Source: Eledone cirrhosa (lineage: Eukaryota). From it: a stretch of 64,000 nt of DNA. The notes below the pieces were generated by a model. The model saw nothing but the letters and a program-made list of their open reading frames with translations. It was not told the DNA's origin and ran no database searches. This document shows positions 27,592 through 28,665 of this stretch, piece after piece (the stretch's first letter is position 1; each line of letters opens with the position of its first letter). The position numbers were made by a program, and so were the translations under genes. The DNA lies in contig OZ024740.1 of the NCBI GenBank assembly GCA_964016885.1, forward strand, positions 124,744,001 to 124,808,000. The letters run 5' to 3'.

Positions 27592-27597
<6 letters not shown>

Positions 27598-28665
27598 AGT
27601 TAAGCAAATCAGGACCACAGGCTCACATAGAAGACATTAGTCGAAAAGTATCAACATTAACTGCAGTTTAATATAAACAAGGGGGTAATAATGTCAGTTT
27701 ACAATTGTTTCACTACTCCATATAATGTTTCTGGATCAATCGATGGTAATATCGTTATTGATTTGGTGCAGAGAAAGATAATTAACATAGAACAATGTTA
27801 TGGAGCATCTCCTCAGAACTTAAGGTTAAATAATGAAAATATTAATATGTATAAAGTAGAAATAAAAATAAAATAAAATGAGAGGGTTTCGTGTCCATAG
27901 ATAATCGTCAGATTAGCGGGTCCCTAGATGTGGTCCCTTGGCACTGGAAAATCTAAGTGTATGGTATAAAGAAATGTTACGTATCTGTCGAGGCTGAATG
28001 TAAACAATGCCACCTAACGCACAACAAAATGGCTTCTTGTAGAGAAACTACCTTATTGTACAGAGATGGGTTTCAAGGGAGGCAATTCCTTGAAGATCCA
28101 AAGGTAGCTAATAGGTAAAGTTATAATGAGATATGTGACTAAGATAATGTGAGGGAGGTAACTTATAGGTGTTTACGTGGTGGACTAAAAATGTTCTAGT
28201 TTATTAGTTATAGTAAATGATAGGCTAAGGTGGGTCAAATATTCTGTTAGCGAAGGAGCTCGCTCTGCGGTGGTGGCAGTTGATGACCATCTCATTTCTG
28301 TCATTTATGGGGGTGAGGGTTGCCTTGACAAACTTATGTGATAGGCCTCGGTGAGGCAGAGATCGCAAGAATTTTTCTCCCGTTAAACGCTGGAGATCTA
28401 GTCAATATAACCCAAGTTAGTGAATGTTCAATGTTGGCCAGTTTAAGGTTTTTAACGAGCCTAGCTAGAGAAGTAGAGCATCTATGGCCAGGTTCGCGGA
28501 AGGAAAACGAGTGCGCGTTATATCGAACCTTAAATGGGTTAGATGTAGAGCCAATATAGGAGCTAGTAGATAGGCCGTTCTAACGATGCACTTAGATACG
28601 ATATTGGGCGTAAGGCATTGCCCGTTAAGCGGGCATGCGGCGGGGTTACGGCATTTGCAATTAGG
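27592..28665 (-). mobile_element. 5'-truncated Penelope-like element: GIY-YIG endonuclease remnant + 3' UTR with HHR, flanked by (TA)n
   Basis: Manual minus-strand translation of 28662-28245 across frameshifts: NCKCRNPAACPLNGQCLTPNIVSKCIV / SYIGSTSNPFKVRYNAHSFSFR..STSLA..W / CDLCLTEAYHI / INDRNEMVINCHH. Confidence 0.85.
27696..27820 (-). ncRNA. Type I hammerhead with extended stem II (PLE 3' UTR)
   Basis: Reverse complement reads agtt CTGAGGA ga tgctccata...tatggagta gt GAAA caattg TA aact. Confidence 0.85.

What the first reader, a model, noticed from the sequence alone, without database searches (positions are those of the whole stretch)
27592..28665. Cryptic Penelope-like GIY-YIG endonuclease with its own hammerhead: likely type of mobilising partner
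Seen: absent from the ORF track because of frameshifts. The minus strand encodes a CxCx5CPLxGxC linker, NIV(S)..YIG, the RY..H..SF helix, CxxC-xxE, and N-x-R-x-E..CxH. A canonical HHR (CUGAGGA, caattg, GUA) follows ~430 bp downstream, and (TA)n lies on both sides. Known: PLEs pair RT with GIY-YIG and carry HHRs. From memory, the CxCx5C linker and (TA)n preference fit the Hydra clade of PLEs; this needs checking. Inference: this kind of element supplies RT/EN in trans to the non-coding HHR families.
Basis: partly seen in the sequence, partly recalled or inferred. Interest (0 to 1): 0.78.

Follow-up and report, generated by a model that had tools for sequence, protein, structure and literature searches.

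The report
Broken Hydra-clade Penelope element, oversized hammerhead
This is a broken, front-truncated copy of a known kind of animal jumping gene (Hydra-clade Penelope); it has no reverse transcriptase and so cannot move anything itself, and its only unusual part is a predicted self-cutting RNA with a much enlarged loop whose cutting activity is untested.

Summary
Window 28667-27592 (minus strand) is a 5'-truncated copy, between two (TA)n tracts, of a Hydra-clade Penelope-like element (PLE) family. It keeps a GIY-YIG endonuclease remnant with three frameshifts and the 3' pseudo-LTR; the window holds no RT. Longer genomic copies (~3.4 kb) show the Hydra marks RWK, DKT, CxCx5C, CxxC and CxH, and lack CCHH. 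An intact sibling endonuclease models onto I-TevI (Z 9.5). (TA)n flanks 20 of 20 3' ends.

The hammerhead is not canonical: helix II carries a 76-nt loop (3-10 nt in published Hydra elements), Rfam misses it, and most of the lineage has the impaired U4C core.

Trans-mobilisation is only partly supported. Neighbouring non-coding families share the PLE footprint but no sequence with this family. They also look younger than it, and an intact second Hydra family and a young Neptune-like family are better candidates. PLE mobilisation of retrozymes is already proposed in print. Earlier notes of this scan report the same footprint, and a long-stem Hydra hammerhead, on other DNA of this genome. Verdict: new member of a known clade; modest interest.

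The parts
27592..28667 (-). 5'-truncated copy of Hydra-clade PLE family H1 (endonuclease remnant plus 3' pseudo-LTR, ending at 3' end A)
   Evidence: 39 other genomic copies listed at 84-93% identity; boundaries
28225..28659 (-). GIY-YIG endonuclease remnant with CxCx5C linker, YIG, R..H, CxxC-E, N..CxH; three frameshifts
   Evidence: fold of an open sibling copy matches I-TevI, Z 9.5
27592..28224 (-). 3' UTR / pseudo-LTR
   Evidence: repeated directly or inverted at the 5' side of long copies
27696..27820 (-). Type I hammerhead-shaped motif: stem I 4 bp, core CUGAGGA, 11-bp helix II with 76-nt loop, palindromic helix III, predicted cleavage after 27700
27521..27591 (.). (TA)n target tract at the 3' end
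28668..28687 (.). (TA)n target tract at the 5' truncation point
29468..29718 (+). Neighbour: isolated 3' end (hammerhead to end B) of a second Hydra family, H2
   Evidence: 79-86% identity to the pseudo-LTR of H2 copies; hammerhead 29514-29563
29030..29345 (-). Neighbour: non-coding family NC1 (further copies at 27330-27520 and about 30460-30700), inverted arm plus direct arm, hammerhead-shaped motif with deviant core
25862..26869 (+). Neighbour: 428-bp retrozyme-type tandem repeat with a short canonical hammerhead in each unit

Best explanation
The stretch is a dead, 5'-truncated insertion of a Hydra-clade Penelope-like retrotransposon, holding only a frameshifted GIY-YIG endonuclease and the 3' repeat, and it was most likely made by target-primed reverse transcription into a TA microsatellite. 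Shown: family anatomy (monomer about 3.4 kb, one RT-EN ORF of about 830 codons, hammerhead motif in the 3' repeat), (TA)n targeting, two fixed 3' ends A and B 170-173 nt apart, and one A plus one B end in every back-to-back insertion. Inferred: the RT-EN protein of an active master copy nicked the TA tract; the freed TA end paired with 3-5 matching bases at internal site A of a tandem or circular transcript; reverse transcription ran about 1.1 kb and stopped; the copy then decayed. When both DNA strands are primed, one starts at A and the other at B, giving the inverted structure with a one-sided tail. The hammerhead is predicted to cleave only as a dimer or with protein help, if at all. Non-coding hammerhead repeats nearby were probably moved by PLE enzymes in the same way, but more likely by younger families than by this one.
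For: Family: 1029 first-look candidates, 40 scored, 84-93% identical apart from self. Long copies carry RWK (4 of 20 loci), SDKT (3 of 20), YRDD (7 of 20); most copies are 5'-truncated. These match the Hydra definition (PMC8557442 section 11) and the printed Hydra-1_Obim protein by eye. Model pLDDT 88: I-TevI Z 9.5, rmsd 2.4, 89 aligned; T4 EndoII Z 8.3; the top 11 Foldseek rows are GIY-YIG-type nucleases, each with E above 0.001. (TA)4 at 20 of 20 3' ends and 17 of 20 5' ends against 5% and 11% background. Mixed A+B ends in 9 of 9 inverted H1 insertions read by eye (6 of 6 by script). The template matches the TA target over 4 nt at both A and B. Two internal RT start sites that define the tail, and nicking of both strands, were shown in vitro for a Poseidon PLE (PMC11167929). 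Helix pairs hold in 91.8% of cells against 28-45% when slid.
Against: Pfam GIY-YIG is below its cut-off (E 0.077 for the window piece, 0.058 for an open copy). No RT tree with published Hydra references was built. No unbroken H1 ORF was found, so the master copy is inferred. The monomer (3388 nt in L022) is longer than the 'generally <3 kb' of published Hydra elements. The in vitro PLE started at template sites not homologous to the cut DNA, whereas I infer short homology; junctions inside a TA tract cannot be placed exactly. Covariation in the hammerhead is thin: 3 pairs change on both sides and 60 of 500 shuffles do as well. End coordinates for the TA count were set by me from BLAST limits.
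Confidence: 0.92

Rival explanations
1. This family (H1) was itself the enzyme donor for the non-coding hammerhead families in the window.
For: NC1 shares the palindromic helix III (ACAAUUGU), a C at core position 4 and a long loop II with the H1 lineage. NC1 and the 428-bp family insert in (TA)n with mixed ends: 16 of 16 and 3 of 3 by script, 9 of 11 by eye for the 428-bp family. The sister subfamily H1b aligns to NC1 with score 34 against a shuffle maximum of 33.
Against: No BLAST homology between the H1 monomer and either family; H1 against NC1 and against the 428-bp unit is at shuffle level (11 and 292 of 300 shuffles as high). The H1b-NC1 match centres on the constrained ribozyme core. 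Median nearest-neighbour identity is 0.947 for H1 against 0.983 (NC1) and 0.993 (428-bp) (top-hit samples, so biased).
Confidence: 0.1
2. A younger Hydra family (H2, or the sister subfamily H1b) is the donor for the non-coding families.
For: H2 has complete ORFs (741 and 742 aa from Met), median nearest-neighbour identity 0.993, the same two-end geometry, and a remnant in the window. The 428-bp hammerhead has the CUGAnGAU...UGAA form with short palindromic helix III that is common in the published Hydra table.
Against: No sequence shared between the H2 3' repeat and NC1 or the 428-bp unit beyond shuffle level. Same target and footprint do not name a donor.
Confidence: 0.45
3. A non-Hydra PLE (a young Neptune-like family, or Naiad) is the donor.
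For: The Neptune-like family has 33691 first-look candidates, stop-free frames up to 1217 aa, 98% mean EN identity, TA-flanked fixed ends and its own minimal hammerhead; a remnant lies at window 30777-31030. Naiads also target (TA)n.
Against: Its hammerhead lacks the palindromic helix III of the 428-bp family (read by eye). 'Neptune-like' rests on linker motif and domain order, not on a tree. I did not examine Naiad here.
Confidence: 0.35
4. The hammerhead motif of this lineage no longer cleaves and is kept as a protein-recognition or folding element, or is simply a relic.
For: C at position 4 in 20 of 33 copies on the tree and on both main branches; U4 is concentrated in the window's subclade (9 of 11 against 4 of 22 elsewhere), as CpG decay in one master would give. 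NC1 spread with core CCGUCGA in 50 of 64 arms. Stem I is 3-4 bp. U4C lowers activity in vitro (PMC3088659 passage), and hammerhead mutants did not impair insertion in vitro.
Against: All other core positions are kept while the free position 7 varies (G, U, A) across subfamilies. The same passage says U4C is tolerated in a viroid in vivo. Other families in the genome pair long loops with a normal core.
Confidence: 0.4
5. The stretch is a domesticated host gene or a chance mosaic.
For: None found.
Against: Three frameshifts, no start codon, many dispersed copies with the same ends, TA flanks.
Confidence: 0.01

Closest known systems
Hydra clade of C-terminal EN+ PLEs (Craig et al. 2021, PMC8557442; e.g. 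Hydra-1_Obim, Penelope-2_NV)
   Same: RWK, DKT, CxCx5C linker, CxxC and CxH around E and N, no CCHH, C-terminal GIY-YIG, sense-strand hammerhead in the 3' repeat with short palindromic helix III, (TA)n insertions.
   Different: Monomer about 3.4 kb against 'generally <3 kb'; loop II 76 nt against 3-10 nt in all 26 Hydra rows of file S2; core mostly CCGAnGA against CUGAnGA in all 26 rows; tail 170-173 nt against the 30-40 bp described for PLEs.
PAc, Poseidon PLE of Anolis (Frangieh et al. 2024, PMC11167929)
   Same: Two fixed internal start sites that define a tail; inverted and tandem insertions; AT-rich targets.
   Different: In H1 both sites lie upstream of the ATG (B is 46 nt before it) and match the TA target over 4 nt; in PAc they lie inside the ORF and were reported as not homologous to the cut DNA.
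Minimal and palindromic PLE hammerheads (Cervera and de la Pena 2014, PMC4209133)
   Same: Type I, short helix I, long helix II, palindromic helix III expected to work as a dimer; low activity in vitro.
   Different: The enlarged loop II, with a possible inner hairpin, and the lineage-wide U4C are not described in the parts read.
Metazoan non-LTR retrozymes (PMC7229834; bioRxiv 10.64898/2026.07.22.740005)
   Same: Applies to the neighbouring 428-bp family: tandem non-coding units with type I hammerheads; PLEs are proposed as the mobiliser.
   Different: The finding itself is a coding-element remnant, not a retrozyme; no pseudo-LTR homology to the neighbours was found, unlike 24 of 57 Xenopus families that matched known TEs in the preprint.

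Membership tests
Hydra-clade PLE | Single ORF with RT and C-terminal GIY-YIG endonuclease | tested here: met
   RT motifs lie upstream of the EN in long H1 copies; continuous in sister H1b, 725 and 727 aa; GIY-YIG fold, Z 9.5. The window copy has the EN only.
Hydra-clade PLE | RWK motif present, N-terminal GxKF/Y not conserved | tested here: met
   RW[KR]A in 4 of 20 loci (L022, L023, L030, L036), all long copies; GxKF/Y pattern absent from those four.
Hydra-clade PLE | DKG modified to DKT | tested here: met
   SDKT in 3 of 20 H1 loci and in H1b.
Hydra-clade PLE | Linker CxCx5C | tested here: met
   Window 28659-28633; 17 of 20 loci.
Hydra-clade PLE | CCHH motif absent; CxxC and CxH beside the conserved E and N | tested here: met
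   No cysteine pair inside the GIY-YIG hairpin (0 of 20 by pattern); CxxC..E in 17 of 20; CHH read directly at 28278-28270 and near-invariant C127, H129 in 61 proteins. My N..CxH pattern had the wrong spacing and scored 0.
Hydra-clade PLE | Insertion into (TA)n | tested here: met
   20 of 20 3' ends, 17 of 20 5' ends; background 5-11%.
Hydra-clade PLE | Canonical hammerhead in the pseudo-LTR | tested here: inconclusive
   Motif present at the expected place with canonical letters in this copy, but loop II is 76 nt and 20 of 33 lineage copies have C4; cleavage untested.
Hydra-clade PLE | Generally shorter than 3 kb | tested here: not met
   Monomer 3388 nt. The paper gives this as a tendency, not a criterion.
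Hydra-clade PLE | RT phylogeny groups with published Hydra RTs | not testable with these tools
   Reference sequences could be read in the supplement but not loaded into a tree; compared by eye only.
Neptune / Nematis / Naiad PLEs | CX2-5CxxC linker and CCHH motif; N-terminal EN for Naiad | tested here: not met
   Linker is CxCx5C, no CCHH, EN is C-terminal; H1b against the Neptune-like protein aligns only over 63 aa of EN.
Active autonomous element | Intact RT-EN ORF | tested here: not met
   Window copy lacks RT and has three frameshifts; longest motif-bearing open stretch in 20 H1 loci is 496 aa of about 830.
Self-cleaving hammerhead ribozyme | Cleavage at the predicted site | not testable with these tools
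   Needs an in vitro assay or raw RNA reads.

The most novel reading that the evidence does not exclude
In this Hydra lineage the hammerhead has turned from a cutter into a structural handle for the RT-EN protein: helix II has gained a 75-nt domain, the catalytic core has drifted (U4C across the lineage, U4C plus A6U in the abundant non-coding family NC1) and the 3' half is nearly invariant. The same proteins start copying at two fixed template sites by pairing 3-5 bases with the nicked TA target, which would give a simple rule for which small RNAs a Hydra enzyme can mobilise.
Probability: 0.2. Interest if true: 0.6.

Novelty: new member of a known kind. Interest (0 to 1): 0.3.

Why it matters
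The stretch itself is an ordinary dead transposon fragment. Its family adds three details to a little-studied PLE clade. (1) Its hammerhead has a loop too large for Rfam and for the published descriptors (7-17 nt and 35-50 nt spacers), so such motifs are probably under-counted. (2) The lineage kept spreading with an impaired core, a natural test of the open question whether PLE hammerheads need to cleave. (3) A long, clean tail with one A and one B end in back-to-back insertions fits two-strand priming. The genome also holds complete Hydra ORFs beside young retrozymes, so the published but unproven idea that PLEs mobilise retrozymes can be tested directly, though not with this copy.

Tried and rejected
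Rfam found no hammerhead in the window at E<=1 or in 27600-28240 at E<=10. My first two descriptors missed most motifs and were replaced. Pfam gave only sub-threshold GIY-YIG hits. A sequence search of solved structures gave nothing useful. I looked for NC1 copies joined to a PLE ORF in 60 loci and saw none (ORFs were screened in the second 30 only). An earlier scan note suggested a small hairpin shared between coding and non-coding families; pairwise alignment and folding of five 3' regions showed none for H1 (one copy each, so a weak test). I first read NC1 as lacking a core; it has a deviant one. Lunse et al. on PLE hammerhead variants is not held, so variants described there may overlap with these. 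Supplements of the bioRxiv preprint were not seen. Searches for prior description returned no paper on long-loop or U4C hammerheads in Hydra PLEs; the library lacks most subscription papers. The host species was not determined.

Full report
1. Observation. Alignment to an open sibling copy shows three indels. Distant full-length proteins hit the stretch independently (E down to 3e-10). Pfam GIY-YIG is below cut-off (E 0.077). A model of an open sibling EN built on 61 sequences (pLDDT 88) matches I-TevI (Z 9.5, rmsd 2.4, 89 aligned), T4 EndoII (8.3) and UvrC (6.5) among 48,161 chains. tblastn with three PLE proteins finds only this EN in the window and no RT.

2. The family (H1). A search of the 3.0-Gb own genome gave 1029 candidates, of which 40 were scored; apart from self they are 84-93% identical. 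I took 9.9-kb stretches around 20 of them. Most are 5'-truncated. The monomer is 3388 nt, with the ATG 46 nt after end B and about 830 codons. RWK occurs in 4, SDKT in 3, YRDD in 7, CxCx5C in 17 and CxxC..E in 17 of 20 loci. These are the marks of the Hydra clade (PMC8557442; seen: abstract, passages, sections 6, 11, 15, 20, supplement part 2 and passages). The RT also reads like the printed Hydra-1_Obim (by eye). Of 112 database homologues, 111 have YRDD and 67 CxCx5C. (TA)4 lies at 20 of 20 3' ends and 17 of 20 5' ends, against 458 of 9139 windows in the window and 973 of 8500 in far flanks (I set the end positions from BLAST limits). No H1 locus has an unbroken ORF; the longest motif-bearing stretch is 496 aa. 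A sister subfamily (H1b, 74-78% RT identity) has frames up to 727 aa among 150 scored hits.

3. Insertion footprint. H1 copies end at one of two sites, A or B, 170-173 nt apart. The window copy ends at A. All 9 insertions whose inverted 5' arm ends in the pseudo-LTR have one A and one B end (5 with B inverted, 4 with A inverted). A tenth, L032, has an internal inverted piece and was left out. A script recovered 6 of these, all mixed. A one-sided tail of 30-40 bp is known for PLEs, and a Poseidon PLE starts copying at two internal sites that define the tail (PMC11167929; parts 1-2 of 4 read). The template matches the TA target over 4 nt at both H1 sites and over 3-5 nt at both 428-bp ends and NC1 end A (read by eye). 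I infer priming by short homology; this differs from the in vitro report and cannot be proved from junctions inside a TA tract.

4. The hammerhead. The motif runs 27820-27696: stem I 4 bp, CUGAGGA, an 11-bp helix II closing a 76-nt loop, GAA, palindromic ACAAUUGU, and the cut after 27700. The descriptor finds 9 motifs in the window and none in 40 simulations. Rfam finds none, and the monomer does not fold into the junction by energy alone, as expected for forms thought to act as dimers (PMC4209133; parts 1-2 of 4). In the 26 Hydra rows of the published table, loop II is 3-10 nt and every core is CUGAnGA. Across 16 lineage copies that I chose to span the subfamilies, 91.8% of cells pair against 28-45% for slid controls, but only 3 pairs change on both sides (60 of 500 shuffles as high). 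Position 7 varies while the other core letters hold, which favours a real motif. Position 4 is C in 20 of 33 copies and on both main branches of a midpoint-rooted tree; U is found in 9 of 11 copies of the window's subclade (support 98/97) and 4 of 22 outside. The 'canonical' core here is therefore probably a derived CpG change. U4C is a known natural variant with reduced activity in vitro (PMC3088659 passages). Cleavage is untested.

5. The trans-mobilisation claim. The idea is in print: PMC7229834 names PLEs as strong candidates (passages) and bioRxiv 10.64898/2026.07.22.740005 argues that retrozymes derive from PLE pseudo-LTRs (parts 1-3 of 5). For: the 428-bp family and NC1 sit in (TA)n and have mixed ends in 3 of 3 and 16 of 16 script-detected pairs (for most NC1 loci the query fixed the direct end). 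By eye, 9 of 11 inverted 428-bp loci are mixed; two, including the window's own, are not. The hammerhead at 29514 is simply the 3' end of another Hydra family, H2. Against H1 as donor: no homology to either family, and lower nearest-neighbour identity (0.947, n=20) than NC1 (0.983, n=29) or the 428-bp family (0.993, n=29) (top-hit samples). H2 (0.993, n=30; complete ORFs in 2 of 5 long frames fetched) and a Neptune-like family (mean 0.981, n=19) are as young as the non-coding families and use the same target. The 428-bp hammerhead resembles published Hydra forms more than the Neptune-like one, a weak pointer to Hydra. The donor cannot be named from these data.

6. Earlier scan notes. None overlap this place or sequence. 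Notes on other DNA of this genome report the two-end footprint, a 422-nt retrozyme with ends 59 nt apart, and a Hydra hammerhead with a long stem II. I had seen the footprint before reading them; they are not independent support. The shared-hairpin lead from them was not confirmed for H1.

7. Verdict. A real but ordinary remnant of a new Hydra-clade family. Novelty: new member of a known kind, with an atypical hammerhead. Interest 0.3.

Noticed in passing
window 29468-29718 (+): Isolated 3' end of a second, younger and far more abundant Hydra family (H2) that has complete 741-742 aa ORFs elsewhere; one of the window's 'non-coding' hammerheads is therefore just a truncated autonomous element.
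   Followed up: yes
window 30777-31030 (+): 3' repeat remnant of a young Neptune-like PLE family with a minimal hammerhead.
   Followed up: partly
window 27330-27520, 29030-29345, 30460-30700: Non-coding family NC1 (longer than 1 kb, GT-rich 5' part) with a hammerhead-shaped fold whose core is CCGUCGA in 50 of 64 arms.
   Followed up: partly
window 785-1881, 22840-23740, 25350-26869: 428-bp retrozyme-type family; six short canonical hammerheads in the window; long tandem arrays elsewhere; two fixed ends about 56 nt apart.
   Followed up: partly
L168, L170, L174, L177, L178, L179, L183, L184, L185, just 3' of the hammerhead: A tRNA-like short element of varying 5' length sits in the (ATT)n tract of the sister subfamily's 3' repeat in 9 of 20 loci, suggesting repeated targeted insertion ('tRNA-like' judged by eye).
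   Followed up: no
L173:429-532, L039, L086, L089, L148, L153, L172: Other hammerhead families with core-to-GAAA spans of 78-115 nt; one (85 nt) lies behind a third Hydra ORF, so long loops are not confined to H1.
   Followed up: partly
window 28688-28722: 35-nt fragment of another repeat between two TA tracts just upstream of the copy.
   Followed up: no
window 51620-51647 (+); 37083 (-): A further short hammerhead motif and a GAAA/palindrome half motif of unassigned families.
   Followed up: no
window 31045-32704: Three-copy 587-bp tandem repeat at 99-100% identity; my descriptor found no hammerhead in it.
   Followed up: no
L029, L032, L034, L036, L077, L173 flanks: Pieces of several other Hydra families lie within a few kb of H1 or NC1 copies, often in the same TA tract.
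   Followed up: no
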